Virus record (IMG/VR): IMGVR_UViG_3300045988_095709
Span: 33,509-97,508 of that record
DNA length: 64,000 nucleotides
DNA from: a virus
Strand: one strand, 5' to 3'
The notes beneath the pieces were generated by a model. The model searched no databases. It worked only from the letters and a program-made list of their open reading frames with translations, and was not told where the DNA came from. The translations under genes and the position numbers were made by a program. Numbering within the stretch: position 1 is the stretch's first letter; each line of letters opens with the position of its first letter. Shown piece after piece: positions 8,941-31,301 of this stretch.

Positions 8941-8965
8941 TTAATAATTTAAAAATTTTAGTATT

Positions 8966-9040
8966 ATGGCATGTGGAAACAAAAAGAGCTCATCTAAGAA
9001 GTCTTCTGGAAGCAAGACTAGCTCTGGAAAAAAGAAGTAA
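8966..9040 (+). CDS. 24-codon Lys/Ser-rich micro-ORF (MACGNKKSSSKKSSGSKTSSGKKK)
   Basis: It runs from ATG 8966 to TAA 9038-9040 in the 102-nt gap between the portal gene and the next gene. Six of its 8 Lys codons are AAG, the codon choice of the MCP-type high-expression genes and unlike the AAA-rich bulk of the block. Confidence 0.35.
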   Translation: MACGNKKSSSKKSSGSKTSSGKKK

Positions 9041-9042
9041 TT

Positions 9043-10485: not shown

Positions 10486-10542
10486 TGCGTAAAAACATTT
10501 GTTTGTTTTTACAGGCACAAAAAACTAATTATAAATATAATT

Positions 10543-11722: not shown

Positions 11723-13243
11723 ATGAATACACTTTTAAACAATCTTCAACTTTATAGAGGACGTCGTTTCTCTGATCTGGTTGATGAAAACATGATTTCA
11801 AACGCACTATTAACAAAGCCTCATGAGGTTTCAGGTCTTCTTTCTCTTGTATTTGGTACAAAGGATGACGGAGTATCTACAGCTATTGACTTGATTACTG
11901 GAGGTCTTGGTAAAACAATGATTATCGAAAACCGCGAATATGAGTGGTCAGTAATGATCGACAGCGACCATGCGGTTAACATTCGTTATGCTAAGTATAA
12001 CGGAAAGGAGCTTACAGATTCAGATATCGATACAGTAACTCCTGGTATTAATGGTTCTCCTATTTATATAGGTCTCGAGGAGAAGTGGTTTGGACCTGGT
12101 GCAATTCTCTCATTCGACGATTATAATTTTCAGGTTCGTGTTAACGGAAAGCCCTATCAGGATGGAAGCACATGGGTATACGAGTGCTACGTTGCAGACG
12201 GATTTGCAAGCTCATATATTCCTGTTGAGTATCTTCTTCCTGGAAGACAGGTTAGCCGTATTGGTAGCGCATACGAAGAGTATAGCGACGAGGCAGATAT
12301 CATAAACTATCAGACACCGTTTAAGATGCGTAACAATCTTAACACACTCCGTCTGTCTTATGATATTACAGGTGACGCTTATTCTACAGTATTGGCTATC
12401 GCTCTGAAGGATCCTGAGACAGGTAAGACATCTTATCTGTGGGCAGATTACCAGTATTGGTTGGCTCTTCGTCAGTGGAAGAAGCGTGAGGAGACAATGC
12501 TTCTGTTCTCTCACTCTAACAGAAATGCTGACGGTACATACGCACTCAAGGGAACTAACGGACGTGTTGTTCCAATTAGCGCTGGTCTGTTTGAGCAGGT
12601 TTCTCCGGCAAATATTCGTTATTACACAACACTGACTGCAGAATTGCTCGAGGATTATCTGTTCGATCTCACATACAATCTTCTCGGAACACAGGAGCGC
12701 AAGTTTATGGCTCTTACTGGTGAGATGGGTATTCGTGAATTCGATCGCGTACTTCGCGAAAAGGCTGCTGGATTCCAGCTTATTGATACGAAATTTATTA
12801 CTGGCTCAGGTCAGGAATTGACACTCGGTGGTCAGTTTACAACATATAAGATGACAAACGGTATTGAGTTGACAGTTAAGCGTTGTGCTCTGTTCGACAA
12901 TATGGAACTGTTCCGTCAGCTCCATCCGATTTCTGGAAAACCGTTGATGTCATACACATTCTTGTTCGTAGATCTCGGACAGCGTGACGGACAGGCAAAC
13001 ATCGTTAAGGTTTGTCGTAAGGGTCGTGAGTTTGTACAGTGGGTTACTGGTGGTTCTGTAATTCCTAGCGGATATGCAAACAGCATCAATACTCTGCGTT
13101 CTAACTCTAGAGATGGTTATCAGGTTCACTTCCTCGGTGAATTCGGTATAATGCTTCGTAATCCTCTGTCTTGCGGTATTCTCTACTGCGATGCTGAAGA
13201 TACAGATATACGTAACGAGGGTAATGCTAACGTAACAGCGTAA
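11723..13243 (+). CDS. Major capsid protein (506 aa)
   Basis: This is an uninterrupted standard-code ORF with no TAG. It follows the scaffold-like gene and has a typical HK97-class MCP size. Its codon usage differs strongly from its neighbours: it favours AAG, CGT, CTT/CTC and GGT, 16 of its 17 Gln codons are CAG, and one sampled 60-nt line (12541-12600) has 31 G+C. A hairpin follows the stop. Confidence 0.7.
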   Translation: MNTLLNNLQLYRGRRFSDLVDENMISNALLTKPHEVSGLLSLVFGTKDDGVSTAIDLITGGLGKTMIIENREYEWSVMIDSDHAVNIRYAKYNGKELTDSDIDTVTPGINGSPIYIGLEEKWFGPGAILSFDDYNFQVRVNGKPYQDGSTWVYECYVADGFASSYIPVEYLLPGRQVSRIGSAYEEYSDEADIINYQTPFKMRNNLNTLRLSYDITGDAYSTVLAIALKDPETGKTSYLWADYQYWLALRQWKKREETMLLFSHSNRNADGTYALKGTNGRVVPISAGLFEQVSPANIRYYTTLTAELLEDYLFDLTYNLLGTQERKFMALTGEMGIREFDRVLREKAAGFQLIDTKFITGSGQELTLGGQFTTYKMTNGIELTVKRCALFDNMELFRQLHPISGKPLMSYTFLFVDLGQRDGQANIVKVCRKGREFVQWVTGGSVIPSGYANSINTLRSNSRDGYQVHFLGEFGIMLRNPLSCGILYCDAEDTDIRNEGNANVTA

Positions 13244-16312: not shown

Positions 16313-17371
16313 ATGATAACATACGTAAACACAGTGCTTGTTGGAAAAGGAGCAAGCGCAATTGTAAGCACAGATACAGAACTCGTGCACGAAAGTAAAG
16401 ATCTTACCAACGCTGGTAAGTATGTAATAATGGATATCGATAACGGAAAGCTTTTGTCAGCAGATACTGCAAACACAGCAAATAGAATTAAGATCGGTAT
16501 CATTCGTCCTGAAAATACTGCTATTCATCTTTCTGATGGTACAGTTAAGTATCATGACGTAATCAAGTGGTCAAACATAATAAGCAAGGATTCTATCATT
16601 TCTATTAACAGCCTTAAGTATGGTGCTGAGAAGAATACTGAAGAGAAGGTTACTGTAGATTTTTCTAATGTAAACACTCAGGTTATGGCAGACTTCGCTA
16701 AGGGAGGAAAGAGAATCGTTCTTCGTATTACTTATAAGGATCTTCCTACTAGATATCGTAAGTGGACTGAGTCTTATGAGTATATTACAGCTCCTGAGGA
16801 TACTGCAGATACTATTGCAGAGAGTTTTGCTGCTCAGATTAACGGACAGTACAAGAGAGCTAGAGTTACAGCTTCTGCTGCTTCTGGAGTACTTACTCTT
16901 ACAGCAATGCCTTATACAGATGATGATTCTAACGATTCTATCAACTGGGCAGAGACTGTACGTTTCAGTGTAAACTGCTACTTTACAGATCCTACTGCTG
17001 CAGCATTTGCTTCTAAGAACAAGTATGCAATTCTCGGTCTTGAGATCGAAAAGACTCCTGGAAAGAGATATGCTGCTGACGCTAAGCTTGTACGTGATCG
17101 TGAAGCTAATGCTATGGGTTACGAAGGAATCCTTAACAAGGGATGCTGCACTTGGCCTATCATCAAGCCGGCAATGCAGGTAGATATTACTAAGAACTAC
17201 GATGCTATTACATTGGAGTTCGAAAGAATGTATCGTGCTGCAGACGATATTTTCCGTAAGACGAAGGAAAGTATTGAGATCTATGACGTTACTGGATCTT
17301 TGACAGACGTTGCTAAGGCTATTAAGAATTTCTCAGGAATGACTATAGCCGGAGACGATCTTACAGCGTAA
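16313..17371 (+). CDS. Abundant virion protein, candidate auxiliary capsid or decoration protein (352 aa)
   Basis: This ORF is uninterrupted and TAG-free. It has the same G/C-ending, AAG/ATC/CGT-rich codon style as the MCP. Its stop context, ACAGCGTAATATT, is identical to that of the MCP, and its own hairpin plus T-run follows. Confidence 0.55.
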   Translation: MITYVNTVLVGKGASAIVSTDTELVHESKDLTNAGKYVIMDIDNGKLLSADTANTANRIKIGIIRPENTAIHLSDGTVKYHDVIKWSNIISKDSIISINSLKYGAEKNTEEKVTVDFSNVNTQVMADFAKGGKRIVLRITYKDLPTRYRKWTESYEYITAPEDTADTIAESFAAQINGQYKRARVTASAASGVLTLTAMPYTDDDSNDSINWAETVRFSVNCYFTDPTAAAFASKNKYAILGLEIEKTPGKRYAADAKLVRDREANAMGYEGILNKGCCTWPIIKPAMQVDITKNYDAITLEFERMYRAADDIFRKTKESIEIYDVTGSLTDVAKAIKNFSGMTIAGDDLTA

Positions 17372-17401
17372 TATTAATTAATGTTTAATGTAGATGGGGT
17401 T

Positions 17402-17436
17402 GGGGTCTTTTGACCCCTATCCTATTTATTTTTTAA
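17402..17436 (+). terminator. Intrinsic terminator after 16313-17371
   Basis: GGGGTC (17402-17407) pairs with GACCCC (17412-17417) around a TTTT loop. A T-rich tract, CTATTTATTTTTT, follows. Confidence 0.55.
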
Positions 17437-17447
17437 TTACTATTGAT

Positions 17448-18683
17448 ATGAATATAAGAATTGGAAACGATATCAAATTAGAATTTACATTGAGGGGACC
17501 TGAAAATGTGGATTTTCTTAATGTTAAACAAATGCGCTGTTATTTGATAAATACATCTACAGATAATAAAAATTGCGCATGTGATATATTCAAAAGATTT
17601 CCAAGAGAACCATTCCCTCAATTCTATACCCCATCTAAATATACGTTACACGGTTGTGGAAGATTTGAGTATAATGTAAATCCTAGTTATACTAAATGTG
17701 GGTATGCATTATCTAGCGGATTTCACGACCCTCATTATTGGCCTTGTTATAACGGATTTGGCATAAATCCAGGTCACTTTATAGATTGTCATCACGGTCA
17801 TCATAATTATAAATCCCCTACATATCTAGCACACTCTGAACTATTAGAAGGAGAAAATAAAGCATGTGCATATTTTCCTGCGTGTGAATAGATAATGGCT
17901 GGTCCTTATAAATTCGTAGTGGTATTGGTATTATACCAAGACGGATGGGGAAAACATAATCTACATACGTATACTATAGATTACGGTACAGTATTTAATT
18001 TAGTATGTGACGATAGTGGTCAAGACGGAGATATAATTATAAATTTAGACGAAAATATAGAAGACAACAGTATTACCAGAATAGATATTGTAACCGATAC
18101 TTTATATTTAGAAGAAGGTTCTTCTTTGAGTATAGGGCAAAAAGATCTTATGGGAAATACATACGAAATAGATTTATATCTAAACAACGGTAGTAAGATA
18201 AAATATAACCCTTCGGATTCTAAATATATTTTAAATTTTGAATCTGACGACGAAATATTAACTGTTAATTCTAACGGCCAATTATAGGCTGGACAAGTAG
18301 ACGAAGAAAAAGTAGTAATCGTTACTATCACTAGTGACAATGATATTGTTTCTGAATTTACTGTTCATATTTAGAAAAAGCAATCTCAATATATAGGATT
18401 TGCAAATACGACAAATGCTCTTGAATTAGATTTCGAATCTGTAGATTCTGAAAGTAGAAAATTATTTACAGAAGTAGATAATATGGAAGGAGAGCATCAT
18501 GTTGAAAATTTCAATAGCGGTTATTATTTATGGATAATAAGTACTAAAGAAATAGCTAGTATTAGTTCTAGTTCGTTTAGTGTTCCTTTATCAGAACCGT
18601 AGAGATTAGATAATTATTATTGTTATTATTGTTTAAATTAGCTTATAAATACTGATTTTACTATAAATATAACATTAAAATAA
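17448..18683 (+). CDS. Cys/His-rich virion protein with an Ig-like (Big_2-like) middle segment (411 codons)
   Basis: I prefer ATG 17448 because the track start at 17394 lies inside the terminator hairpin. The frame continues through TAG 17889, 18285, 18370, 18600 and 18639 to TAA 18681-18683. The N-terminal ~145 residues contain 10 Cys and many His (…HFIDCHHGHHNYK…). Confidence 0.6.
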
Positions 18684-18689
18684 TAAATT

Positions 18690-20486
18690 ATGGAATTTAA
18701 TGATAATGATGTAAAAGTATTTGGTAAAATTGTATCTATAGCTTCGGAAGGTAAAATTGCAGACACACAATAGATATACGATAGTACATTTGAAAATGGA
18801 GACTTTCAATCTAATATAAATAAAAAATTATTAGATAAAATATAGGAAATAAGTCAAACTGTAACTAAGATTCAGGAAAACATAGAAAAGATATAGGAAG
18901 AAGGAATAAAAACAACAAAGAATTATTTTTATACTTCTATAAACAAAGACGAAACTGCTTCTAGTTCAGAAAGAAATAAAAGATCTGTACCTCGTGCATC
19001 TATGTAGGCGATAGTTAATCACATTGATAGTCTAGAAAGGAAATATCCAAGTTAGTATATTTTTACAGGAGATTATATTGTAAACGAACACGCTACTACA
19101 AATGATGAAAATTATATACATTATGATAAAATGTATATATATCACTTTGACAATATGTATAGAATGTATCTTAGTACTTAGGAAATAACTTTCGACAGAT
19201 TATCAGAAACAGGAAAAGCTAAAGTAAATCTCAAAGGTATATCTTTTGAATGTGATTCTTCAAATATATAGGAAGAAACTACAACTTGGGTAAAAGAGGT
19301 TTATTTAGACGCAATAAGTGTAAACGAACGTATATAGTCAGAAGACGGTGATATGATGTATAAAAATATATATCGAGTACTTACTGACGATGGTACGTAT
19401 AAAAAAATAGAAGATATACTAGGTGTAGATATTATAAATAACGGAGAAGGAAATAAATTTTTATCTGATAATGGACAATATATAGAAATAAATTCAGGTG
19501 AAATAGAACCCTAGATTTTTACACTTACAGTATAGGCAGATCCTTCTGATTCTATTATAAAATTAAACGATATAGAACAAAACACCATAAGTGTCGAAAA
19601 AGGTTCTAAAGTAAAAATAGAAGTTTCTAAAGAAGGATACATTACTTATTATTAGAGTATAACTGTTAACGAAAATAAAGATTTACAAATCAAACTCACA
19701 AAAGAAAGTGAGATAGTGATAGATAAAGAAGAACTGAATATGAATGTATATAAAGTATGGTTAAAATCGTCTAGTGGAGATCTAGATGAATCTGCAAACG
19801 CTATTATTAAAGAATATTTGGACGAAATAAATACAGGAAATATGGCATTATTGTATATCACTCCTGCGTTTCCTCAGTCTGAACCTGGAATAAAAGATTA
19901 TTCTTTAGTTAATTTGTAGTTTTCAAGTACTAGCGGTTTTACCGGATTTGGTTTTTATAAAGATATAGAAACAAGTGATAATGTTGGATATTTTAAATAG
20001 TTTTCTATTAAAATAACAACAAATTCTGAAACATAGAAATATAAAATATCATATTATGGAGAAATTTCAATGGACGCCACAATATTGAACGGATATTCTA
20101 CTGTAAACATACCCAAATAGTATATTTGTGGTATAAATAAAAATGAAGATTCGTATACATTTAGCGGATTCAATAAATCAGAACTTATAGAATATATGGA
20201 TTCTGCTAAAAATCAGGAGGATATAAATATGTACGGACAATCTTACATAACAGTTAGTAGAATATATAACGATGATAGTTGGGAAGTACCTTACGATATA
20301 TATCCAGATATAATAGATAAATCGAAAATAGGTAGTACTGGTACGGTATTGCACGGAGTATCTAAAAATGCAGATACAAACGGTCACAGATTGGAATTGG
20401 AAATAAGCGGATCTACAGATGGAGGAGATGGATATACTATAACAAAATGTCAATATGTAGATCAGAACGGTCAACCGTTAAGTTAA
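18690..20486 (+). CDS. Fibre-like or receptor-binding protein (598 codons)
   Basis: I checked frame 0 line by line from ATG 18690 to TAA 20484-20486 and only TAG interrupts it. The N-terminus MEFNDNDVKVFGKIVSIASEGK... is paralogous to that of 20530-20751. Confidence 0.65.
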
Positions 20487-20751: not shown

Positions 20752-20801
20752 TTATGAATTTTTTAGATAAAACAGGTCTCCAATATTTTTGGGGAAAAAT
20801 A
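20750..20801 (+). repeat. Conserved fibre-gene junction, copy 1
   Basis: AATTATGAATTTTTTAGATAA (20750-20770) and TATTTTTGGGGAAAAATA (20784-20801) are identical to 21843-21863 and 21877-21894. Confidence 0.8.
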
Positions 20802-21833
20802 AAGACATAGATAAATAATAGTTTCGCAGCAAACGATGCGATGACTTTTAAGGGTACAATTGGTACTGGAGGTACAGTAACAGCACTTCCTGCTACACAT
20901 AAAGTTGGAGATACATACAAAGTATCTACGGCAGGAACATATGCTGGAGCTAAGTGTGAAATAGGAGACATGATAATCTGTGTAAAAGATGGATCTTCTG
21001 ATACAGCTTCTGATTGGACAATCGTTCAGTCTAACATTGACGGAGCTGTCACAGGTCCTACTAGTTCTACAGATGCTCATGTTGCAGTATTTAATGGAGC
21101 CACAGGAAAGATAATAAAAGACAGTGGTTTTACTATAGCAAAATCTGTACCATCTAATGCAGTATTTACTGATACTACATATTCTGTAGCTACTACATCT
21201 AAAGACGGATTAATGTCTGCAGAAGACAAGAAAAAATTAGAAGGAATAACCGGTAGTGGAGATTATGTACTTCCGGCAGCTACTTCTACTACACTCGGTG
21301 GAGTTAAGATAGGAAGTAATATTAGTAACTCTTCTGGTACGATCAGTATTACTAAACAGAATGTTACAGACGCGTTAGGATATACTCCATTGCAGACAGC
21401 TAGTGATACTAAAGTTACTTAGAATACTCCTGTTTCTACTTCTGGTGATTTTAATATGTTAATGGCAAAAACTGCAGGAAACGTAGCTAATGAAACAAGC
21501 GATGTAAACAAAGCAAGAGCTTTCACATATAACCCAGGAACACAGTGTGTAAAAGTATCTAGATCAGACGAAGGATAGAATACTGATACTGTAATTCTAT
21601 CTAGTTAGAACGATTACGAATTGAAATTATCTCCTGCTGGAATAATAATGAATACTGGAGATACTCCTAGATTGACTATCGATTCAGACGGAGGTACGTT
21701 CGATAGTGAATTTACAATAACTGCTGTAAAATTTGTTAAGTCTGGAGGAACATCTTCTCAGCTTTTGGTTGCAGACGGATCTGTTGCAACTGCGATATCT
21801 AACGGAGACATAGACGCTATTTGCGTAGATTAA
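20754..21833 (+). CDS. Tail fibre protein (359 codons)
   Basis: It runs from ATG 20754 to TAA 21831-21833 with 4 TAG. The N-terminus is MNFLDKTGLQYFWGKI. It carries the fibre motifs KDGLMSAEDKKKLEGI and DYVLPAATSTTLGGVKIG (21261-21314), plus ...GGTSSQLLVADGS... Confidence 0.8.
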
Positions 21834-21842
21834 AAATATTAC

Positions 21843-21894
21843 AATTATGAATTTTTTAGATAAGACCGGACTTTAGTATTTTTGGGGAAAAATA
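21843..21894 (+). repeat. Conserved fibre-gene junction, copy 2
   Basis: It contains the same 21-mer and 18-mer as copy 1, spanning the start codon and first 16 codons of the next fibre gene. Confidence 0.8.
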
Positions 21895-22959
21895 CAAACA
21901 TATGTTTTAAATCAACTAGAAGCCATTCCTTTAGCTGGAAAATTTAATAACGGATTAATGTACGCTGGAGATAAATAGTTGATAGATAAATATAAATCCA
22001 TGTGGTAGGATATGTACGGATCTGGTGAAGACGGAAATATGCCATTAAAAAGTATAAACATATCATAGAGTGGTGGAAAATTAGTAATATAGAGCGGGTC
22101 GTAGGATTATTCTACAAGTACAAGTAATATAAAAGAAACAAAAAACATACCGACAGCGACAACATCCGCAGACGGAGCTATGAGTTCTTCTGATAAATAG
22201 ACACTTGATAATTTAAATTCTAAATTATAGGATATAGATTTTAGTAAATATTTTAAAGAAGGAAATATATATACTACTGATGACGAAAGTGTATCTTTAG
22301 ATTTATAGTATCTTAGAGATGTAAAAATATGGTCTTATTCTGGAGGAGAGCAAAAAGCAGCTATATTGGGACATTTTCATTCTGATGTTCCCGGAAGTAA
22401 ATTTTCCGTAATATATTAGGACGATACAGCAAATTCCGGACATCCTTTGGTGATAGAAACAATTCCTTATTTTGGAATATTGCTAGGAATGTCTGAAGGA
22501 ACTAGTGTTGGTTATTATACAGCAACAAGAGGAACATATTCTACATACATAGGAAGAGGTAATGTTTCGGTATGCGATTCTTAGAGTTCTACAGGAATAT
22601 TAACAGGAAAAAGAGTACAACTCACTTCAAAAGGATATCGTCCTGTTGATAAATAGGGATCTGTAACAATAGACGACACGTGGGCTAAAAATAATATGAA
22701 CAATATAGCTACTTGTGATGCCACTATGGTTGACGCAAAAGTCATAGATATAGATTACGATCATAAAATAGCTACAGTTAGAATAACGATACAAGATACA
22801 GAGGGGTAGTTTTTTTACGTTAAGACTGGAGGAATCGTAATAGGAGGAACAGCATCTTCAGCGGTAAACGGAGAATATTATGCTAACGTTGTATTATAGG
22901 TTCCGTACGATAGTAGTGGAAAAGTTTCGTTATACGATAAATACGCAATAACTTGGTAA
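21847..22959 (+). CDS. Tail fibre protein, paralogous N-terminus (370 codons)
   Basis: I read frame 1 line by line from ATG 21847 to TAA 22957-22959. It has 14 in-frame TAG, so no standard-code ORF of 60 aa or more appears here in the track. The N-terminus is MNFLDKTGL(TAG)YFWGKI, and it has two (A/S)xDK-x-(L/T)(I/L)D motifs. Confidence 0.75.
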
Positions 22960-22960
22960 T

Positions 22961-25582
22961 ATGAAAAAATATAATACAAATTTATTTGGTTAGAAATTAA
23001 ATGTTTCTTAGGCTATTGACTCTAACGCAGAAGGAAAAGGTACTATTACTAGAAACATAGGAGAAAATGCTAATGGAACATTTAATGTTTCTAATACCGG
23101 ATCAGAAGATTCTAAAAAGACAATACATTCTATAGGAATTGGAACCAAAGATTCAGATAGAAGTAACGCATTAGAAATAATGCAGAATGGAGATGTATAT
23201 CTATACGGAGTCGGTGGATACGAAGGGGATAATGCTTCAGATTCTAAATCAGTACAATCTGTAATACAGGATTCACAATCTGGTGGAGATTATACTTTAC
23301 CGATAGCTTCTGCTGACACTCTTGGTGGAATTAAGGTTGGAGAAGGTCTTAATATAGACGGAGAAGGCGTTCTTAGTTCTACTAGTAGTGGAAGTGGTAG
23401 CGGTGTAGGTAAGGTTGATCCTAAATCAGATGGTACTGGAGAAATCTTTAACGATTATACAAACAACTCCGCTTCTGGAAAGTATTCTCATTCTGAGGGA
23501 TATGGAAATGTTGCAGAAGGAAATTATTCTCATGTTGAAGGAGTTGGTGCTGTCAAACTTACAATAAATCCGGAAAGCATAATGACAATGTGTGTTGTGA
23601 TGCAAACTCCGTAGATCAGCGAAGATAAGAAAACTGCTACAGGACAAATGATGAGATTCGACGGAAAACCTATAAACATAGAATCCGGAACTAAAATATA
23701 TACTGTAGAAATAGCTGAAGGCTTTTCTTTTTTGCAAACATTGACTGTAGTAGAATGCAATAATACTGATACTCTTGTAGTAGATACTCCTTTTGACGAT
23801 TCCGTTATAAATTCGAATTCAGGAGAAGGAATAGCTTTTATTACACAAGAAGTATATGATTTGTTGAATCCGGAAGATATAATTTTACCATTAAGATCGA
23901 AAGGAGAATGTTCTCATTCTGAAGGATATGGAAACGTAGCTTTCGGAAACTATTCACATGCAGAAGGACATGGTTATTCTTGTTCAGACATTGTACAAAT
24001 AACACAAATAAGTGAAGACGGTAAGAAGATTTATGGTGACTTTTCTAAATTAGGAGATTCGTCCATAACAGATAGTTCTTTAGTTAGAGATGTATCTTCT
24101 CCTGCGATAATAAAAGCAAATAATGGAAACCATATAAGAACTGTAAAGATACCAGGAGACGTTGGTGGTTACTAGGGATATATGGAATTAAACGAATCTA
24201 TAGGAACGATTGAAGAAGTAGGTTAGGAAATAGTCGTAATTATAGGTTTAAATTATTCTAAGGGATTAGGTTCTCATACCGAAGGTCGTATTACAGAGGC
24301 TTCTGGAGATTATTCTCATGCAGAAGGAATTTTTTCAACAGCTTCAGGAAAATCTTCTCATGCAGAAGGATCATTTAATGTTTCTTCAGGAGCGGATTCG
24401 CATTCTGAGGGAAAAGAAACAAAAGCTATTGGAATTGCTTCTCATGCAGAAGGATCAAATTGTGTATCAGAAGGATTATATTCTCATGCCGAAGGTGAAA
24501 TGGCAAACGCAAAAGGATCTAAATCTCACGCAGAAGGTACTAATACACAAGCAATAGGTGAATCTTCTCATGCTGAAGGAAACAGTACTATAGCGAACGG
24601 AAACGCTTCTCATGCTGAAGGATATCATACAAATACAAATAACGAATACGAGCATGCTTGTGGAAAATATAATTATTCCGATTCGTCTTCAGATTATGAT
24701 TCCTATAAGACTATATATTCTGTAGGAATAGGAACATCTGATAACGATAGAAAGAATGCGTTTGAAATTTCAAAAACAGGAAATGTATACGTAAAAGGTA
24801 TTGGTGGATATATCGGAAAAGAAAAAGAAGGAAAATAGACTCTATAGGATACAATAACAGATATAAAAAATAACGGATATTCTGTTACAAGCTTAAATGT
24901 AACAAACGAAAAAGAATATAATGTTTTATTATTAGAACCTTCTTCTGATAAAATAAACGGTACATCTTCGTTTAAATGTGTAGATCTATGTTTCAATCCA
25001 AATACGATAAATGATTGGAGGCACGGATTATTTCTGAAAGAAAGATCTACTGGTTATTATTCTAAAATAGGAAAAGATTCTGTAGAGATATACGGAAAAA
25101 TAGAAGACCAACCACACGTAATAAGTATTCGTAGAAGTAATACTGACATAGAACATAGTTCTAGCGAGTTAGGAAACACTGACGTTTTAATACAAAATGA
25201 AGGTTTAAAAATAGGTAAATACGTAACAGGAAGCGGATATGAACCGTCTTCAGACAATAGTAATTCTATTTTAAAGAAGAGTAGATTAGATATACAAAAC
25301 CTAACGACAGGTGGTTCTTCTAACACTTCAACTTACATTAGTTCTCAATTGTATGCAGACGATAATGGAAATGTCGATAAATCCGCAAAAATAGAAATAC
25401 AGGGAGAAACATCTAATATAGATCTTCACGGAACTACTGATTCTTATATAAAAATAAATAATAAATATGTTATTACAGGTGCAGAAGATGAAAAACGTAT
25501 AAAAATCTGGACCGGAACTCAAGATCAATACGATCAGATCGAAGTTAAGGACGAAAACACATTATATTTTATAACAGTATAA
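22961..25582 (+). CDS. Tail fibre or spike with YadA-head-like (Hep_Hag-type) repeats (873 codons)
   Basis: It runs from ATG 22961 to TAA 25580-25582. The track ORFs 23180, 23648, 24500 and 25349 all share this frame and are joined by TAG. It has 13 xSH(A/S/T/V)EG motifs, the fibre motif DYTLPIASADTLGGIKVG (23288-23341), and a duplicated module SIGIGTKDSDRSNALEIMQNGDVYLYGVGGYEG / SVGIGTSDNDRKNAFEISKTGNVYVKGIGGYIG. Confidence 0.8.
24269..24646 (+). repeat. Nine exact-period tandem coding repeats of 42 nt (14 aa)
   Basis: The x-S-H-x-E-G units start at 24269, 24311, 24353, 24395, 24437, 24479, 24521, 24563 and 24605. A 14-residue period is characteristic of YadA-like head beta-roll repeats. 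Confidence 0.85.
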
Positions 25583-25585
25583 TCT

Positions 25586-26434
25586 ATGAAAAATTTAAAA
25601 GTTAGTATAATAATGTCTGCATATAATTCTGAAAATACAATAGACACTGCAATACAATCTGTATTAGAACAAACTTATGATAATTATGAATTAATAATTG
25701 TAAACGATTGTTCTATAGATGGTACATTAGATAGAATAAAGAAATATAAATCTGATAAAATAATACTAATAAATCATGAATTTAATATGGGATGCGGATG
25801 TTCTAGAAAAACAGGAATAGAAAATTCAACAGGAGATTATATTTGTTTTTTAGACAGTGATGATTATTATGATGACAGATATGTGGAAACATTAATAAAC
25901 TATGCAATACAATATAATGCTGACAGTATACAATCTGGTAGAATAATAATAAAATATGGAGAACTTATAGAAAAAATTCCTGAATTTTATGATATATCTG
26001 GATCAGACAAATTGATAATAGAACCGTCTGAAAACTATAAGTTTTTAAATTCAGCCATGTTTAAAAAAGAATTATTCGACAAAGTTGAATATTCTGAAAA
26101 CAGATATAACGAAGACGGTCCGACGATTACCAAATTAAATATGATATGTAATCGTAGAATATTTATTCCGTATGCTGGATATTATTATAATAACGATAAT
26201 GCAAACAGTCTTACTAAAAATTCAGATAATATTAAAAATATAATATATCATTCTTTAGGAGTGTTTGATGTTATAGATTTTGCGAATAATAATAATATAA
26301 AATACGATTGGAATCAACTTATAATACATACGTTGAACAATTTAAAAAATATAGAATATACACAAGACGTAATTTAGAAATATAAAAATGAATTATTACG
26401 TTTGTATTTATATATTATAAAATTAAATATATAA
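25586..26434 (+). CDS. Family-2 (GT-A fold) glycosyltransferase
   Basis: The N-terminus VSIIMSAYNSENTIDTAIQSVLEQTYDNYELIIVNDCSIDGT and the DxD motif FLDSDDYY are classic GT2 signatures. There is no internal TAG. The standard-code ORF ends at TAG 26375-26377. If that TAG is decoded, 19 more codons follow to TAA 26432-26434. The gene is very AT-rich (12 G+C in its first 60 nt). Confidence 0.85.
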
Positions 26435-26435
26435 T

Positions 26436-26582
26436 ATGGGAATTATACTTGGACAATTACAAATTAAAGACATACGGTTGGGAACCAAATAGGTAATCAA
26501 AGTGTACAACGGAGAACAATAGATACATAGTAATACGTAGGAACAGTAGATATCAAAAGATCAGGTTGTAGATTTATAGTAA
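26436..26582 (+). CDS. Small hypothetical ORF (48 codons, 5 TAG)
   Basis: It runs from ATG 26436 to TAA 26580-26582 and encodes MGIILGQLQIKDIRLGTK(Q)VIKVYNGEQ(Q).... Coding status is uncertain. Confidence 0.3.
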
Positions 26583-26762
26583 AAGATAATTCTTAAATAT
26601 TCAAAAAATTTAATTTTTTATTGAAAAAAGTGACATTTTTTTGAAACCACTCATGTGGGGTTTATACGTTATATATAAGTAATTACATATATTTTTCGTG
26701 CGCACACGAGATTTTTATTTATAACTAACCTATTTTTAATTTATTTTTATTTATTTATTCTT
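26583..26762 (+). promoter_or_regulatory. Largest intergenic region of the block; probable promoter or regulatory region for 26763-27551
   Basis: This 180-nt AT-rich non-coding stretch contains a hairpin AAACCAC-TCAT-GTGGGGTTT (~26643-26663) and a GC-rich palindrome GTGCGCAC (26698-26705). I could not identify a clean Bacteroidetes-type -33/-7 promoter. Confidence 0.3.
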
Positions 26763-27551
26763 ATGGAAGATAAAATCACAGAAAAAGTTTATTGTTATGA
26801 CCATCCTAGCGCTTATAACAACAATAACGCTTGGGAGGCTATGGCTCTTATGAATGGTGGATCAAATTGGTAGAATAACCCATTCATTTATTTAGTATGG
26901 ATGATGTTTGCTAATCGTATGTGGGGAGGAGAAAGAGATTGTGCAGGAAATGCTCAGTATATGGCTCTTCAGAACCAGATTAGCGATAACCAGAATGCGA
27001 ATTTGGTAATGGACGGTATTAAGGGAACTACCGATGCCGTTCGTCAGTTAGCAGCTAATCTAAATTGCGATTTCAATACTTTGAATTCTGCAATTTGCGA
27101 CGTACGCTCTGGCATACAGCAAGTGGCTGGACAAATCGGTTTCAGCTCCGAAAGAGTAATCAATGCTGTGAATATGGGCGATTGCAATGTTATTCAGGCT
27201 ATCCAGAACTGCTGCTGCCAAACACAGCAGAGTATCTTAAAGATGGGATACGAGAATCAACTTGCAAATTGCAATCAGACGAATGTTCTCTCTAATGCTA
27301 TACAAGGTGTAAACGTAGGATTAGAGCGCGGTTTCTCTGCAGTTGCGTATGAGACCCAGAAACAGACGTGTGACTTGCTTAACGCCGGAAATTCTAATAC
27401 ACAAAGAATAATTGATGTATTGAATAACCATTGGAATAGTGAGTTGCAGCAGAAGTATGATGATGTAAGAACAGAACTTTCTCAGTACAGACAGAGTGCT
27501 TATCTGATCTCTCAATTGAAGCCCACTTCAACTACTACTGCGGCTGCGTAA
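26763..27551 (+). CDS. Cys/Gln/Asn-rich repeat protein of unknown function, probably highly expressed (262 codons)
   Basis: It runs from ATG 26763 (alternative ATG 26901) to TAA 27549-27551 with a single TAG at 26871-26873. Codon usage is the CAG/AAG/CGT-rich style of the MCP. A hydrophobic N-terminal segment (PFIYLVWMMFANRMW) is followed by about four helical Cys-containing repeats (NCDFNTLNSAICD / GDCNVIQAIQNCCC / ANCNQTNVLSNAI / QTCDLLNAGNSN). Confidence 0.7.
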
Positions 27552-27577
27552 TTTAAAATTTTAAAATACGTGCAATG

Positions 27578-27604
27578 AAGGGAGTGGAAACACTCCCTTT
27601 TTTG
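27578..27604 (+). terminator. Canonical intrinsic terminator
   Basis: AAGGGAGTG (27578-27586) pairs with CACTCCCTT (27591-27599) around a GAAA tetraloop, and the T-run continues to 27603. Confidence 0.8.
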
Positions 27605-27626
27605 TTATTATACAATTTGAAAGATT

Positions 27627-28142
27627 ATGACATTTAAAGATTTAAAAACAAATTATCCTGTGTACTTATTTGATAAGAACATAGTGAAGTTGTATGAAGG
27701 TAAAGTAACTAATATAAACGCTCCTCATATTGATATTAAAAATGCTGGAGCAGGTAGAGGAATGGTTGTAGATGTAACAGTACAGTATAATACAGAAAAT
27801 AATGGAAATTAGACGTGTACTTATACTTTTAAAGATTCTACCGAAATAGGATACATAAACAGTCTTGTTATATCTACCGATAAAGATTTAATATTGAAAG
27901 AGGTTGAAGCATTATGTAATCAGTCTAAATAGATATTACAATCTGTAGAAACAAATAAAAATATAGTAAATCGTTGTCAAGATATCTTATCAGAATATAA
28001 TCCCGCAATAAAAGAGAAAAAAGAATACGATGAAAGATTTTCAAATTTAGAAAATCAAGTAAAAGATATGAAAAGTATGATAGAAACATTAGTAAATAAA
28101 TTAAATAATACTTCTGAAAATGAGCAACGAACAGAAAAATAA
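27627..28142 (+). CDS. Hypothetical protein (171 codons)
   Basis: It runs from ATG 27627 to TAA 28140-28142 with 2 TAG. The C-terminus is coiled-coil-like. It overlaps the next gene by 23 nt. Confidence 0.6.
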
Positions 28143-28620
28143 AATAGATAAGATGTCGGCTTACATAAGCGAAGACATCAACGAAAAATAGATACAAAAA
28201 TCTATAATACAAAAATTAATAACCGAAGCAAACAAATACGATAGAGAGTTTGTAGATAGGATGTATGAATACTACGACGGAATGAAGTAGTATAATAATT
28301 ATTTAACAGAAGACGAAGCTTCTTAGATACTGAGTAATTTTGTAAATTACGATGGTACAAAAGGAGCTATGTTTAAAAATTCAATGTGGTTGTTTAACAG
28401 ACTTGCTGAATAGAATTTACATTGTGAATGCGCTCCTAATTATAACAAATGGGCATTATATGTTACTATGAATAAATTCGCTTCAGATCAGGGAAATGTT
28501 ATAAATAAGTGGATAGGAGAAGATAAAGATAAATTTATAATTGCTTGTTATGATTTATCTACTGCTCAACTCTCAGATGCAGACAGACCGCATTGGGTTA
28601 GATCTTATTTTAATTTATAA
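28120..28620 (+). CDS. Hypothetical protein (166 codons)
   Basis: I read frame 1 line by line from ATG 28120 to TAA 28618-28620 and found 4 TAG. Confidence 0.6.
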
Positions 28621-28621
28621 T

Positions 28622-29056
28622 ATGATATTTTAGGCAGATGATACATTAATATAGGCAATATGTAATTTTGAAGGTTTAAGAACCACAGCTTATAAATGTC
28701 CGGCTGGTGTTTATACTATAGGGTATGGACACACAAAAGGAGTAAAAAAAGGACAAAAAATAACTAAACAACAGTCTGTGGAATATTTATACTAGGATTT
28801 ATAGCCTATTGTGGACTACCTAAACAGTATAAATGTGTGTAGAACACAAGGTTAGTTTGATGCCCTTGCCGATTTCATATTTAATTTAGGTACTTCTGCA
28901 TTCAAAAGATCTACGTTATATAAATACATAAAAAATAGATATTCCGACGACGCTATATGTAATCAAATAATGAGGTGGGTATATGCCGGAGGAAAAAAAT
29001 TAAACGGTTTAATAAAACGTAGATAGTGGGAATGCGATATGTGGAAATCAAAATAA
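28622..29056 (+). CDS. Endolysin, GH24 (phage lysozyme / muramidase) family
   Basis: It runs from ATG 28622 to TAA 29054-29056. The translation ...FEGLRTTAYKCPAGVYTIGYGHT...(Q)FDALADFIFNLGTSAF...WVYAGGKKLNGLIKRR.. matches the GH24 signature (E-G ... TIGYGHT ... Q-F/Y-DAL ... G-L-x-x-RR). It has 6 in-frame TAG in 144 codons, including codons 4 and 11. Confidence 0.9.
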
Positions 29057-29060
29057 CACT

Positions 29061-29585
29061 ATGAACATATTAGCATCTATTGGAAATACATTTAATACGA
29101 TAAGCAACGGTACAGAAATAGGAAAATTAGCTGTTGCTGCATCGGCTATATTAGTCGCATATATATCTCCAATAGTTGGATTGTTAATCGCCTGTTTTGC
29201 ATGTTCTATCACAGACATGATTTATGGAATCAAAGTAGCAAAACGGCTAGGAAAGAAAATCACTAGTAAAAAGAACTGGAAAGGAACTCTTACTAAAATA
29301 AAAGACGAATTTACTTTAATACTATTGGCACACCTATTAGAGTATGTAATAGGATATGGTGATAATTTCATACTATCTGGAGGTATAGCTGTGATTATAT
29401 GTTTGACTGAAATACTTTCTATATTGGAAAATCTAAACACACTAAACCCAGAAGGACCGTGGAAACTGATAAGTAAATTCTTAAAGAAAAAGGGTTCTGA
29501 CATAATGGATATAGATGACAATATAATTTAGCAAAATGATGACGATAATAAATTGGTTAATAAACAACAAAAGAATCGCCATTGA
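29061..29585 (+). CDS. Holin (multi-TM; phage_holin_4-like SILENL motif)
   Basis: The 156-aa standard-code ORF 29061-29531 has three or more hydrophobic segments and TEILSILENLNTLNPEGP. It lies directly after the endolysin. Its first stop is TAG 29529-29531. If that is decoded, 18 charged codons (QQNDDDNKLVNKQQKNRH) are added up to TGA 29583-29585. Confidence 0.6.
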
Positions 29586-30184: not shown

Positions 30185-30859
30185 ATGAATATGTTTTCAC
30201 TTAAATCAATGATAGACGATATACTATTATTGGTACGCAATAATAATATTAGCGAAAGTGAAGACCTGTCGAGAGCATAGATTGCAACATGGGTACTTGC
30301 GTATAAATCGTACTTGATAAACAAAAAGAACGAAAAAAACGAAGACGACGGAGAAGATAAATCCGACGATAGTTTTTAGACTACAATAGGACCTGTAGAA
30401 CTAATCGAAGAAGAATCTCTCGATAATACGTGTCTTCACAGAAAAAGAACTAAAGAAAAAATACCAGAGTTATTAGGAGACAGTGACGCAAACATAATAA
30501 GTGTGTGTGATCAAGAAGGATGTGTCATACAAAAGATGAATGATAAACGTAGACATTATCATTATTTCAGAAAATACACATTCGGAGAAATGACATACTG
30601 GTATGAAAACGGGTACGTTTATGTACAAGGACTTACTGATTTAAACAGACTCAAATATATTTGGATTACAGGTAACTTTGTAGATACTACAGACGAAGAT
30701 GAAGATTCTATACAAATACCTGGATGGATGGTTCCAGATATTAAAAAATTAATATTTAACAATGAATTAGCGTTTATGTTAAGCCTACCTAGCGACGACG
30801 ATAATAATTCTACATTATCGGGAATAAAACCAAAGGGAGATTAGCAGAATGAAAAATAA
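30185..30859 (+). CDS. Hypothetical tail-module protein (224 codons)
   Basis: It runs from ATG 30185 to TAA 30857-30859 with 3 TAG, and overlaps the next gene by 11 nt. Confidence 0.6.
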
Positions 30860-31301
30860 TTCGTTTACTTATAGAGATTCTTATAAAGAATATACAAAAA
30901 CCAACGGTAAAAATATAGATTATTCTACTTATAAAAACATTTTATACGAATTTAGTAATGTTATACTTAATAATTTGTTATATAAATCAGAATGTATAAC
31001 GATGCCTTACGGATTTGGATATTTGTGTATAGTGAAATATAAACCTAAAACTTTAGATAAAAACAGATTGTCTATAGATTATAAATCTTCCAAAGAGTTT
31101 GGAAAGATAATATATCATCTTAATGAACATTCCGATGGATATAAATATAGATTATTCTGGTCTAAAATACCAAAAACATTTCCGGAAAGATATAAATATC
31201 AATTACAACTTGTAAGGAAAAATAAAAGACTGTTGGCAAAACTTATATTTAACAATCAAGATTATATAAACATAGATGATATACAAATATACAAAATGTG
31301 A
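30849..31301 (+). CDS. Hypothetical basic protein (150 aa, TAG-free)
   Basis: This uninterrupted ORF ends in TGA and is Lys/Tyr-rich. crAss-like tail modules often contain a small DNA-binding (IHF-like) protein, but I could not verify any motif. Confidence 0.55.
   Translation: MKNNSFTYRDSYKEYTKTNGKNIDYSTYKNILYEFSNVILNNLLYKSECITMPYGFGYLCIVKYKPKTLDKNRLSIDYKSSKEFGKIIYHLNEHSDGYKYRLFWSKIPKTFPERYKYQLQLVRKNKRLLAKLIFNNQDYINIDDIQIYKM

What the first reader, a model, noticed from the sequence alone, without database searches (positions are those of the whole stretch)
25586..26434. GT2 glycosyltransferase moron at the end of the fibre cluster, TAG-free and unusually AT-rich
This clear family-2 glycosyltransferase (…IVNDCSIDGT…, DSDD) sits directly after the last fibre gene. 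It has no internal TAG, so it is translatable before any code switch. It looks markedly more AT-rich than the adjacent fibre gene: 12 G+C in its first 60 nt against 26 in the sampled line 23281-23340. It could glycosylate the fibres or capsid. Alternatively it could remodel host capsular or LPS glycans, which are the likely receptors, for superinfection exclusion. Its first stop is TAG 26375-26377, so a 19-residue extension is possible after the switch.
Basis: partly seen in the sequence, partly recalled or inferred. Interest (0 to 1): 0.65.

Follow-up and report, generated by a model that had tools for sequence, protein, structure and literature searches.

The report
Late glycosyltransferase in crAss-like fibre cassette
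A gut crAss-like phage carries an intact sugar-adding enzyme as the last gene of its tail-fibre cassette; it belongs to an optional, unstudied enzyme family of this phage order, made late in infection, and its target (fibres or host surface sugars) is unknown.

Summary
ORF 25586-26434 is a family-2 glycosyltransferase (Pfam PF00535, E 2e-34) with an intact DSDD motif. It starts 3 nt after a fibre gene and is the most AT-rich gene-sized stretch of the window (GC 0.230, GC3 0.145).

The interpretation needs correction in three ways.
- The window is a TAG=Gln recoded crAss-like phage (Suoliviridae/Oafivirinae-like). The gene reads through TAG 26375, and the 19 residues beyond it form a family-conserved C-terminal helix. 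The product is therefore 282 aa and needs the late code.
- Orthologues in related phages carry 2-8 in-frame TAGs, and four of them encode the family-invariant Gln with TAG. This is a late gene, not a pre-switch one.
- It is not a fresh bacterial import. It belongs to a GT2 family of roughly 275-295 aa that, wherever context was examined, sat in late or structural blocks of crAss-like contigs, at four or more positions.

The family is patchy. Only 1 of the 8 nearest GenBank relatives has it, and the best bacterial hits are about 27-36% identical.

The closest solved structures are CgT (adhesin O-glycan elongation) and then TarS and TarP. The target is unknown. I favour virion or fibre glycosylation (about 0.4) over host-glycan remodelling (about 0.3). 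Verdict: a new member of a known kind, of moderate interest.

The parts
25586..26434 (+). GT2 glycosyltransferase CDS. It is 282 aa when TAG264 is read as Gln, and 263 aa if TAG stops translation.
   Evidence: Family alignment. AF2 model with pLDDT 93.9. About 15 synonymous and 8 non-synonymous codon differences against the 97%-identical relative L165, giving dN/dS of roughly 0.16.
25703..25720 (+). NDCSID motif. D41, S43 and D45 are invariant in the family and form the nucleotide-sugar binding region of the GT-A fold.
   Evidence: Invariant columns.
25853..25864 (+). DSDD, residues 90-93: the DxD metal and diphosphate binding motif.
   Evidence: D90, D92 and D93 are invariant in 38 family members, and also when bacterial GT2s are added.
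26111..26116 (+). E176-D177 ('ED' motif). D177 is invariant and is the candidate catalytic base.
   Evidence: Equivalence to the catalytic base of solved GT2s is inferred from the alignments, not tested.
26375..26377 (+). In-frame TAG at codon 264, read as Gln in this recoded genome.
   Evidence: One search shows the genome-wide TAG-sense signal. The TAG is kept in L165. TAG encodes the invariant Gln29 in the orthologues L002-L005.
26378..26434 (+). The last 18 codons (KYKNELLRLYLYIIKLNI) plus the TAA stop. This is the terminal helix of the C-terminal helical domain.
   Evidence: It aligns with the family consensus xYxxExxEL. AF2 predicts a helix at 267-281.
20754..25582 (+). Three fibre genes (20754-21833, 21847-22959, 22961-25582). 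Together with the GT2 they form one tightly packed cassette.
   Evidence: Matches to PF11133 and PF24243. Gaps inside the cassette are 13, 1 and 3 nt. The cassette is flanked by the two largest intergenic gaps among the plus-strand genes called, 267 and 328 nt.
26436..26582 (+). Remnant ORF of 48 codons with 5 TAGs. It is the 5' fragment of a 228-aa gene that is intact in the close relative L165. It marks a recombination junction just downstream of the GT2.
26694..26721 (+). Terminator-like hairpin (TTTCGTGCGCACACGAGA) followed by a T-run. This is the possible end of the fibre-GT2 transcription unit.
   Evidence: The fold z-score of the spacer is -2.7. This is a consensus match only.

Best explanation
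Shown with high confidence (about 0.85):
- 25586-26434 encodes an intact, selectively maintained, soluble GT-A-fold family-2 glycosyltransferase of 282 aa. It has a DxD motif, so it is presumably an inverting, metal-dependent enzyme that uses a nucleotide-sugar donor.
- The GT-A core is followed by a small C-terminal helical domain.
- Its frame runs through one TAG codon that this phage reads as Gln.
- It is the last gene of a four-gene fibre cassette in a TAG-recoded crAss-like phage (Suoliviridae/Oafivirinae-like). It is therefore made late, together with structural proteins.
- It belongs to a GT2 family that, in every context examined, sat in late or structural modules of crAss-like contigs. 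The family is optional (patchy), evolves fast and sits at several different positions in those modules.

Inferred (about 0.4): the enzyme acts in the cytoplasm during assembly. It transfers a sugar onto a virion component, most plausibly one of the fibre proteins it is co-inherited with, or onto a glycan already on that protein. This would decorate the adsorption apparatus of the progeny.

Also inferred: the 263-aa product made without TAG read-through lacks the terminal helix and would be poorly active. If so, full activity is confined to the late, recoded phase.
For: Enzyme identity and integrity:
- Pfam match and invariant D41, D45, R74, D90, D92, D93 and D177.
- AF2 model with pLDDT 93.9 and pTM 0.91.
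- dN/dS of about 0.16 against L165.
- No 19-residue window is hydrophobic enough for a membrane helix (maximum Kyte-Doolittle mean 0.74).

Late expression:
- The genome-wide TAG-sense signal.
- A 3-nt gap to a fibre gene holding 7 TAGs, and no promoter-like motif upstream.
- Orthologues with 2-8 in-frame TAGs, including the invariant Gln29 in the SVLNqTY motif.
- In cr130_1 the GT2 sits in the TAG-rich block, while the adjacent block of small genes and nucleotide-metabolism genes (dUTPase, ThyX) is almost TAG-free.

Structural-module residence, in all 12 contexts examined:
- After a fibre gene: window and L165.
- Before the 172-aa gene and the large terminase: cr130_1, L003-5, L169. L007 has a 926-aa fibre-like gene between the GT2 and the 172-aa gene.
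- After the portal, with overlapping stop and start: L167.
- Between the portal and the major capsid gene: L166, L001, L168.

Fibre linkage:
- Upstream neighbours often carry the fibre N-terminal motif LDxxGLxxxWxKI.
- Between the window and L165, the GT2 and the distal 2.2 kb of the fibre gene are co-inherited at 95.7% nt identity, while the fibre's proximal part and the downstream genes are swapped.

C-terminal helix:
- It is conserved in the family.
- The closest solved protein by sequence (E 9.5e-45) and by fold (TM 0.74 over the full length) is CgT, PDB 5HEA. CgT elongates the O-glycan of the fibrillar adhesin Fap1. Its three-helix C-terminal domain is required for oligomerisation and activity (PMC5063993).

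Precedent from memory, not read here: phage-encoded virion glycosylation in mycobacteriophages (Freeman et al. 2023).
Against: - No direct evidence identifies the acceptor.
- Most characterised homologues (TarS, TarP, RmlT, TuaG, EpsE, WcaA, PglI) modify envelope glycopolymers or lipid-linked oligosaccharides.
- Only one GT2 domain is present in the window. CgT itself needs a glycan primed by other enzymes.
- No conserved immediate partner gene was found across the family. A fibre related to the upstream one also occurs in cr131_1, which has no GT2 hit.
- I know of no report of virion glycosylation in a Bacteroidota phage, and the literature searches found none.
- The cost of losing only the last helix is extrapolated from a deletion of all three helices in CgT.
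Confidence: 0.4

Rival explanations
1. Host-glycan remodelling. The enzyme adds a side-branch sugar to a lipid-linked capsule, LPS or O-glycan precursor of the Bacteroidales host. This alters the receptor surface of infected cells. The benefit would be superinfection exclusion during slow or persistent infection, or protection of progeny from adsorbing to infected cells and debris.
For: - The nearest functionally known relatives act on envelope glycopolymers. TarP is itself prophage-encoded, aligns over nearly the full length (E 5.8e-27) and matches the fold (TM 0.70).
- The only near-full-length NCBIfam alignment is to PglI, a lipid-linked oligosaccharide glucosyltransferase. It is far below the cut-off.
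- PHROGs and RefSeq label relatives as O-antigen conversion proteins.
- Capsule phase variation governs susceptibility to crAss-like phages (PMC8375218, abstract seen).
- The same idea was proposed for a GT encoded between the portal and capsid genes of 'Gratiaviridae' (PMC8008677).
- Linkage to the receptor-binding module fits a receptor-related role.
Against: - The gene is late and TAG-dependent, and in every context examined it sat in a late or structural block. That leaves little time for a modified glycan to reach the surface.
- No integrase or lysogeny context was seen.
- There is no flippase or GtrA/GtrC-like partner next to it and no membrane anchor.
- No close homologue was found in bacterial genomes, Bacteroidota included.
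Confidence: 0.3
2. A recently acquired, autonomously expressed moron that is TAG-free, so that it can be translated early, before the switch to the TAG=Gln code.
For: - 263 TAG-free codons. By a per-codon Poisson estimate P = 0.014.
- The lowest GC3 in the window.
- A terminator-like hairpin downstream.
- Patchy distribution.
Against: - The conserved C-terminal helix lies beyond TAG264.
- The TAG scarcity is explained by the low number of Gln codons (P = 0.23).
- The gene starts 3 nt after a TAG-rich fibre gene, without a promoter-like site. Sigma-70-like hits are no more frequent than in shuffled sequence, and no Bacteroides-type -7 motif lies within 250 nt upstream.
- Orthologues are TAG-dependent late genes.
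- Low GC is shared by orthologues that are only 35-42% identical, so it is a long-standing feature.
Confidence: 0.08
3. DNA hypermodification. A GT-A enzyme glycosylates hydroxymethylated bases of phage DNA before packaging.
For: Phage GT-A enzymes that glycosylate 5hmC also have TarP as their best PDB match, and they share the generic R...DxD...ED motifs (bioRxiv 10.1101/2023.12.21.572611).
Against: - Those enzymes sit next to cytosine methyltransferase and 5mYOX genes, or ThyS-type genes. Here, and in all 12 contexts examined, the neighbours are fibre, portal, terminase or capsid genes.
- The similarity of the DNA enzymes to TarP is much weaker (E 1e-5 to 1e-6) than this protein's similarity to polysaccharide or protein-glycan GT2s.
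Confidence: 0.05

Closest known systems
cr130_1 gp56 (YP_010113289.1; UniProt A0A7M1RVD0), annotated 'GtrB-like O-antigen conversion', Chuhaivirus simiae, Suoliviridae/Oafivirinae
   Same: Same protein family: 40-42% identity over the full length, and predicted-structure TM 0.88. Same kind of phage, which also reads TAG as Gln. It also lies in the variable fibre-containing block of the late region.
   Different: It sits at another position, directly upstream of the 172-aa gene and the large terminase, not after a fibre gene and before the lysis region. It has 2 in-frame TAGs, including the invariant Gln. Its 'GtrB' label is not supported, because the family has no membrane segments.
CgT, the C-terminal GT-A domain of dGT1 (GalT1) of Streptococcus parasanguinis, PDB 5HEA
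   Same: Best solved match by sequence profile (E 9.5e-45) and by fold (TM 0.74-0.75 over about 288 columns). Same architecture: a GT-A core with a DxD motif plus a C-terminal helical domain. CgT works on the glycan of a fibrillar surface protein (PMC5063993).
   Different: Only about 24% identity in the structural alignment. CgT is fused to a DUF1792 glycosyltransferase and works in a multi-enzyme pathway on a serine-rich repeat adhesin of a Gram-positive bacterium. None of those partners is present here.
TarP (prophage-encoded wall teichoic acid GlcNAc-transferase of S. aureus, PDB 6H1J) and TarS
   Same: A phage-borne GT2. The profile alignment is near full length (E 5.8e-27) and the fold matches (TM 0.70). 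There are tblastn hits to tarP prophages at 38% identity over residues 1-166.
   Different: TarP is a lysogenic-conversion gene of temperate phages and acts on ribitol-phosphate teichoic acid. Bacteroidales, the expected hosts, are Gram-negative and should lack that polymer (background knowledge). The gene here is a late gene of a phage with no sign of lysogeny in the window.
Glycosyltransferase between the portal and major capsid genes of 'Gratiaviridae' gut phages (Benler et al. 2021, PMC8008677)
   Same: A GT embedded in the late structural region of gut Bacteroidetes phages. Its function is unknown, and capsule modification has been proposed.
   Different: A different phage family. That GT is accompanied by a HipA-like kinase and an AAA ATPase. 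Sequence relatedness to this family was not tested.
Virion-glycosylating glycosyltransferases of mycobacteriophages (Freeman et al. 2023; recalled from memory, paper not read here)
   Same: Phage-encoded GTs that glycosylate the phage's own capsid or tail proteins. This is the functional model for the favoured explanation.
   Different: Actinobacterial hosts and unrelated phages. Homology was not examined. In those phages the acceptor is established, here it is not.

Membership tests
Glycosyltransferase family 2 (Pfam PF00535, GT-A fold) | Profile score above the curated threshold | tested here: met
   119.2 bits against a cut-off of 23.3, E 2.2e-34, covering residues 7-150.
Glycosyltransferase family 2 (Pfam PF00535, GT-A fold) | GT-A Rossmann-like fold | tested here: met
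   AF2 model with pLDDT 93.9. Foldseek probability is 1.00 to the GT2 structures 5HEA, 5TZI and 6H1J.
Glycosyltransferase family 2 (Pfam PF00535, GT-A fold) | DxD metal-binding motif and upstream nucleotide-binding Asp | tested here: met
   D90-S-D92-D93 and D41/D45 are invariant in 38 family members, and also with bacterial outgroups added.
Glycosyltransferase family 2 (Pfam PF00535, GT-A fold) | Acidic catalytic base downstream of the DxD motif | tested here: inconclusive
   E176-D177 are conserved and D177 is invariant in the family. Structural equivalence to the catalytic base of solved enzymes was not checked residue by residue.
GtrB-type bactoprenol glucosyltransferase (serotype conversion; the label used by PHROGs and RefSeq for relatives) | C-terminal transmembrane helices anchoring the GT2 domain | tested here: not met
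   The highest 19-residue Kyte-Doolittle mean is 0.74. The C-terminus is a soluble helical bundle in the model. The PHROG matches cover only the N-terminal GT-A part, residues 5-169.
GtrB-type bactoprenol glucosyltransferase (serotype conversion; the label used by PHROGs and RefSeq for relatives) | GtrA flippase and GtrC partners in a three-gene cluster of a temperate phage | tested here: not met
   The neighbours are fibre genes upstream, and a phrog_16490 protein, a coiled-coil protein, a DUF7841 protein and an endolysin downstream. No integrase was seen in the window, but it was not searched exhaustively.
Moron (autonomous promoter-gene-terminator unit inserted between conserved phage genes) | Own promoter upstream | tested here: not met
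   There is a 3-nt gap to the fibre gene. Sigma-70-like hits are no more frequent than in shuffles (61 against 55 +/- 7). No TAnnTTTG motif lies in the 250 nt upstream. Promoters of crAss-like phages are poorly defined, so this test is weak.
Moron (autonomous promoter-gene-terminator unit inserted between conserved phage genes) | Deviant composition, and presence or absence between otherwise syntenic relatives | tested here: met
   GC 0.230 against 0.318. The GT2 is absent from the equivalent slot of Dulem virus 42 and from 7 of the 8 closest GenBank relatives.
GT2 family seen here only on crAss-like contigs (defined here: P0001-P0039, cr130_1 gp56) | Full-length similarity (about 275-295 aa), including the C-terminal helical domain with the xYxxExxEL end | tested here: met
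   34-47% identity (36-47% by BLASTP) over 82-100% of the length to 36 clusters (a 37th, P0001, is 97% identical). There is a gap in E-value and coverage before generic GT2s.
GT2 family seen here only on crAss-like contigs (defined here: P0001-P0039, cr130_1 gp56) | Encoded in late or structural modules of crAss-like phage genomes | tested here: met
   12 of 12 examined contexts. Crass_capsid, portal, CrAss_Ring and crAss_MUZ Pfams are present on the contigs.
TarP/TarS-type teichoic acid glycosyltransferases | Polyol-phosphate teichoic acid as acceptor | not testable with these tools
   Only sequence and fold similarity could be shown. The expected Gram-negative host should lack the substrate (background knowledge).

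The most novel reading that the evidence does not exclude
The GT2 family found here on crAss-like contigs is a late, TAG-dependent virion-glycosylation system. The enzyme would sugar-coat tail or head fibres of some crAss-like phages. This would be the first such system in phages of gut Bacteroidota, with possible effects on receptor recognition, mucus adherence or immune visibility. In this phage a single TAG ahead of the terminal helix would act as a translational gate that restricts the active enzyme to the recoded late phase.
Probability: 0.3. Interest if true: 0.7.

Novelty: new member of a known kind. Interest (0 to 1): 0.38.

Why it matters
crAss-like phages are among the most abundant viruses of the human gut. 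Their adsorption depends on variable host surface glycans, and their fibre modules are the fastest-changing part of the genome. An optional glycosyltransferase that travels with those modules and is made only late is a concrete, testable candidate for one of two roles. It could decorate the virion, or it could edit the receptor surface at the end of infection. The gene also gives a clean example of stop-codon recoding mattering for annotation. Read with the standard code, the enzyme looks 'TAG-free' and complete but lacks a conserved terminal helix. In sister phages the invariant catalytic-domain Gln is itself a TAG. As it stands this is an ordinary accessory GT2 with an unknown acceptor. The RefSeq and PHROG label 'GtrB-like O-antigen conversion' for this family is probably wrong.

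Tried and rejected
- **Donor search in bacteria.** A scan of 185,579 species-representative genomes gave at best 34-36% identity over about 200 residues, in Lachnospiraceae and other Firmicutes, and 29% in Prevotella. No donor could be named. The scan used a single peptide pattern, so it is not exhaustive.
- **NCBIfam.** No model came near its cut-off (best was TuaG, 88 bits against 400), so there is no equivalog assignment.
- **Whole-library HMM search**. The top of the list is swamped by multi-domain GT2 proteins. It only shows that roughly 30 or more single-domain, full-length 50%-identity clusters score above 300 bits. It gives no context.
- **Conserved partner gene next to the GT2.** Immediate neighbours differ between lineages. 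The upstream fibre type also occurs in cr131_1, which has no GT2 hit.
- **Alternative cargo in the same slot.** The gene upstream of the 26763 homologue in 80 IMG/VR loci never matched any window protein. This shows the slot is variable, but the ORF calling was crude (only TAA was treated as a stop).
- **Rfam scan of 25000-28000.** Nothing found.
- **tRNA scan.** No tRNA, and hence no suppressor tRNA, lies in the window. It must lie in the part of the genome not covered.
- **Pfam on four upstream proteins** (119-3847, 3850-4368, 9043-10485, 16313-17371). No hits.
- **Literature.** No paper on glycosyltransferases encoded by crAss-like phages was found.
- **First structure job.** I used the 97%-identical P0001 as the target instead.
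Full report
**1. What the window is**

Reading TAG as sense nearly triples the summed length of ORFs of at least 100 aa (7,789 aa to 22,700 aa). Reading TGA as sense does not have this effect. With TAG as Gln the plus strand becomes an almost gap-free series of genes:
- large terminase (4379-6442) and portal (6445-8940);
- major capsid protein (11723-13243);
- a fibre cluster, then lysis genes (endolysin 28550-29056, holin homologue 29061-29585);
- ring and muzzle-type proteins, and a 5,372-aa ORF.

The capsid protein is 82-89% identical to Dulem virus 42, cr272_1, cr273_1, cr7_1, cr124_1, cr130_1, cr131_1 and a Bohxovirus. Those with an ICTV assignment are Crassvirales, Suoliviridae, Oafivirinae. 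The window is therefore a TAG-recoded crAss-like phage.

**2. The observation**

The coordinates and motifs are right:
- ATG at 25586, TAG at 26375-26377 and TAA at 26432-26434;
- IVNDCSIDGT at residues 38-47 and DSDD at residues 90-93;
- Pfam Glycos_transf_2 at 119 bits, E 2e-34.

The upstream gene 22961-25582 ends 3 nt before the ATG. It carries a phage tail tip domain (PF24243). Genes 18690-20486 and 20754-21833 match head-fibre families.

The gene has GC 0.230 against a 32-gene mean of 0.318 (z = -2.0). It has the lowest GC3 of all genes (0.145). It is more AT-rich than any 849-nt stretch sampled across the window. The composition partly reflects an Ile/Asn/Tyr/Lys-rich protein.

**3. The TAG question**

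Codons 1-263 hold no TAG, but the protein has only 7 Gln codons (6 CAA and the TAG). TAG makes up 31% of Gln codons elsewhere, and a binomial on 8 Gln codons gives P = 0.23 for one TAG or fewer. Several other genes, including the capsid gene, have none.

The 19 residues after the TAG are not an optional tail. In an alignment of 38 family members they match the conserved C-terminal consensus xYxxExxEL, and E269 is at least 90% conserved. In an AlphaFold2 model (pLDDT 93.9, pTM 0.91) they form helix 267-281. That helix closes a helical domain made of helices 215-235, 243-254 and 260-265. A relative 97% identical in protein (L165) keeps the same TAG and the same TAA. The real product is therefore 282 aa and needs TAG read as Gln.

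Orthologues in other recoded relatives hold 2-8 in-frame TAGs. In cr130_1 and three IMG/VR relatives the family-invariant Gln of the SVLxQTY motif is itself TAG. In cr130_1 the GT2 lies in the TAG-rich block. The adjacent block of small genes and nucleotide-metabolism genes (dUTPase, ThyX) is almost TAG-free.

The gene follows a fibre gene with 7 TAGs after a 3-nt gap, and no promoter-like site lies upstream. All of this points to late expression with the structural genes. The idea that it is translatable before the switch is not supported.

**4. Is it functional?**

- D41, D45, R74, D90, D92 and D93 are invariant even when bacterial GT2s are added. D177 of the ED motif is invariant within the family.
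- Against L165 there are 15 synonymous and 8 non-synonymous codon changes, giving dN/dS of roughly 0.16.
- It is the only GT2 domain in the window.
- It has no membrane segment.

**5. Where its relatives are**

The protein search returned a distinct group of 275-295-aa proteins, P0001-P0039. P0001 is 97% identical and the rest are 36-47% identical, all over 82-100% of the length. None of them is named. There is then a drop in E-value and coverage to generic GT2s that match only the N-terminal 35-50%.

Every context I examined is a crAss-like contig, and the gene always sits in the late or structural region, at different places:
- directly after a fibre gene (window, L165);
- directly before the 172-aa gene and the large terminase (cr130_1 gp56, L003-L005, L169), with one more fibre-like gene in between in L007;
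- overlapping the stop codon of the portal gene (L167);
- between the portal and capsid genes (L166, L001, L168).

Upstream neighbours are often fibre-like proteins. They share the N-terminal motif LDxxGLxxxWxKI with the window's fibres 20754 and 21847.

The family is patchy:
- Of the 8 closest GenBank relatives, only cr130_1 has it.
- Dulem virus 42 shares the window's backbone order but goes from its last fibre gene to the 26763 homologue without a GT2.
- Of 80 IMG/VR loci holding a 26763 homologue, 7 have a family GT2 within 7 kb and none has it adjacent.

GT2 identity falls with core-gene identity but much faster. Window against cr130_1 is 71% for the terminase and 42% for the GT2. cr130_1 against L169 is 92% against 58%. 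This fits long residence with rapid divergence, plus relocation and loss. Lateral exchange among crAss-like phages is not excluded.

In bacterial genomes the best matches are 27-36% identical over about 200 residues and are taxonomically scattered. Low GC relative to the genome is also seen in the orthologues: 0.27-0.28 against 0.32, and 0.37 against 0.39. It is a standing property, typical of weakly expressed accessory genes, and does not indicate recent import.

**6. Local anatomy**

The three fibre genes and the GT2 (20754-26434) are packed with gaps of 13, 1 and 3 nt. They are bounded by the two largest intergenic gaps among the plus-strand genes I called, 267 and 328 nt. The downstream spacer contains a terminator-like hairpin at 26694-26711.

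Comparison with L165 shows that the distal 2.2 kb of the fibre gene plus the GT2 are co-inherited at 95.7% nt identity. The proximal fibre repeats differ (873 against 1,219 aa). The genes between the GT2 and the endolysin are replaced. The window keeps only a 48-codon remnant (26436-26582) of the 228-aa gene that follows the GT2 in L165.

**7. What it resembles**

- By profile and by fold, the best solved match is CgT (5HEA). It is the GT-A domain of the streptococcal dGT1, and it adds GlcNAc to the O-glycan of the fibrillar adhesin Fap1. Its C-terminal three-helix domain is needed for oligomerisation and activity.
- Next come TarS, TarP (prophage-encoded), RmlT, heparosan and chondroitin synthases, and a Bacteroides fragilis GT2.
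- Among predicted viral structures, the only close match is cr130_1 'GtrB' (TM 0.88).
- The GtrB label fails a membership test. The family has no transmembrane helices and no GtrA/GtrC partners.

**8. Mechanism**

Shown: an intact, late, soluble GT2 with a helical C-terminal domain, linked to fibre modules and optional within its phage group.

Inferred: the acceptor.

- I favour glycosylation of a virion component, probably a fibre (about 0.4). The gene is confined to structural operons in every context examined. It is often translationally coupled to structural genes. It depends on the late code. It is co-inherited with the distal fibre segment. A virulent-type phage gains little from changing host glycans at the end of infection.
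- The main rival is remodelling of a host envelope glycan precursor (about 0.3). The biochemistry of most characterised homologues supports it, as do TarP and Gtr as phage precedents.
- DNA glycosylation (about 0.05) lacks the usual neighbouring genes.
- The suggestion that the TAG before the terminal helix gates activity rests on analogy with the CgT helix deletion and is untested.

**9. Verdict**

The finding is real but more ordinary than proposed: a new member of a known kind, a phage-encoded accessory GT2. Two corrections are useful:
- the gene is late and TAG-dependent, not pre-switch;
- it belongs to an unstudied, mislabelled GT2 family that I found only on crAss-like contigs, and it is not a fresh bacterial import.

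I found no literature on glycosyltransferases encoded by crAss-like phages. Interest is moderate.

Noticed in passing
window 26436-26582; L165 5326-6012: A 48-codon ORF with 5 in-frame TAGs sits right after the GT2. It is the truncated and internally deleted 5' remnant of a 228-aa gene that is intact in the 97%-related phage L165.
   Followed up: yes
window 26595-28611 vs L165 5549-6320: Cassette swap between two otherwise 95-97% identical phages. The window has the Cys/Gln-rich phrog_16490 protein (26763-27551), a coiled-coil protein (27627-28142) and a DUF7841 protein (28120-28620). L165 has the 228-aa gene and a 101-aa hydrophobic protein that looks membrane-bound.
   Followed up: partly
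window 22961-25582 vs L165 813-4472: The fibre gene is 873 aa here but 1,219 aa in L165. The difference is extra copies of an internal module: SH(A/S)EG repeats followed by an 'IHSIGIGT.D.DRKNA.E..NGD.Y' block. This suggests repeat expansion or contraction in the proximal half.
   Followed up: partly
window 20754-20801 and 21847-21894; also 119-3847 (residues ~200-230) and 22961-25582 (residues ~110-140): The two fibre genes 20754 and 21847 start with the same 16 residues (MNFLDKTGLQYFWGKI). A second shared motif, Y(V/T)LP.A...LGG(I/V)K(V/I)G, recurs in three fibre-like proteins, including the 1,242-aa ORF at the window start. These are probably interchangeable anchor modules. The same N-terminal motif heads fibre-like genes next to the GT2 in relatives (L004, L007).
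   Followed up: partly
L002-L005 (cr130_1 and IMG/VR relatives), GT2 codon 26: The Gln that is invariant in the whole GT2 family is encoded by TAG in these phages. This is direct, gene-internal proof that TAG is read as Gln there.
   Followed up: yes
window 11723-13243, 16313-17371, 26763-27551, 30849-31301: The capsid gene, 16313-17371 and 30849-31301 are completely TAG-free. The capsid gene, 16313-17371 and 26763-27551 also have the highest GC and GC3 and prefer CAG for Gln, which looks like codon selection in highly expressed genes. 30849-31301 is TAG-free too, but is as AT-rich as the GT2 (GC 0.227).
   Followed up: partly
L081 (Dulem virus 42) 7563-10835; L084 (cr131_1) 17380-19759; L166, L168: The major capsid genes of several relatives are split by HNH, GIY-YIG or LAGLIDADG endonuclease ORFs (intron- or intein-like insertions), and so are the terminase genes of Dulem virus 42 and cr131_1. 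The window's capsid and terminase genes are uninterrupted.
   Followed up: no
window backbone vs cr130_1, cr131_1, cr272_1 (L082-L084): Two genome architectures exist in this phage group. In cr130_1, cr131_1 and cr272_1 the variable genes sit upstream of the 172-aa gene and the terminase. These include homologues of 26763 and/or 27627 in cr130_1 and cr272_1, and a fibre homologue in cr131_1. In the window and Dulem virus 42 a corresponding block sits between the 17388 homologue and the lysis genes.
   Followed up: partly
L008-L015, L031, L042 (IMG/VR sample 3300045988, GC ~0.45): More distant members of the GT2 family (about 30% identity) lie on 33-65 kb contigs. Their coding capacity rises when TGA, not TAG, is read as sense. 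Three of these contigs, checked by name, also carry 26763 homologues. The family therefore spans phages with different recodings.
   Followed up: no
window 28550-29056: The endolysin ORF as called overlaps the previous gene by 71 nt. Comparison with L165 (endolysin starts MIFEVDN...) suggests the true start is the internal Met of ...YNMIFQADD, near 28622.
   Followed up: no
window 1-64000: No tRNA gene, and hence no TAG suppressor tRNA, lies in the 64-kb window. cr130_1 has a tRNA-Gln annotated next to its dUTPase region, so the suppressor is presumably in the part of the genome not covered.
   Followed up: partly
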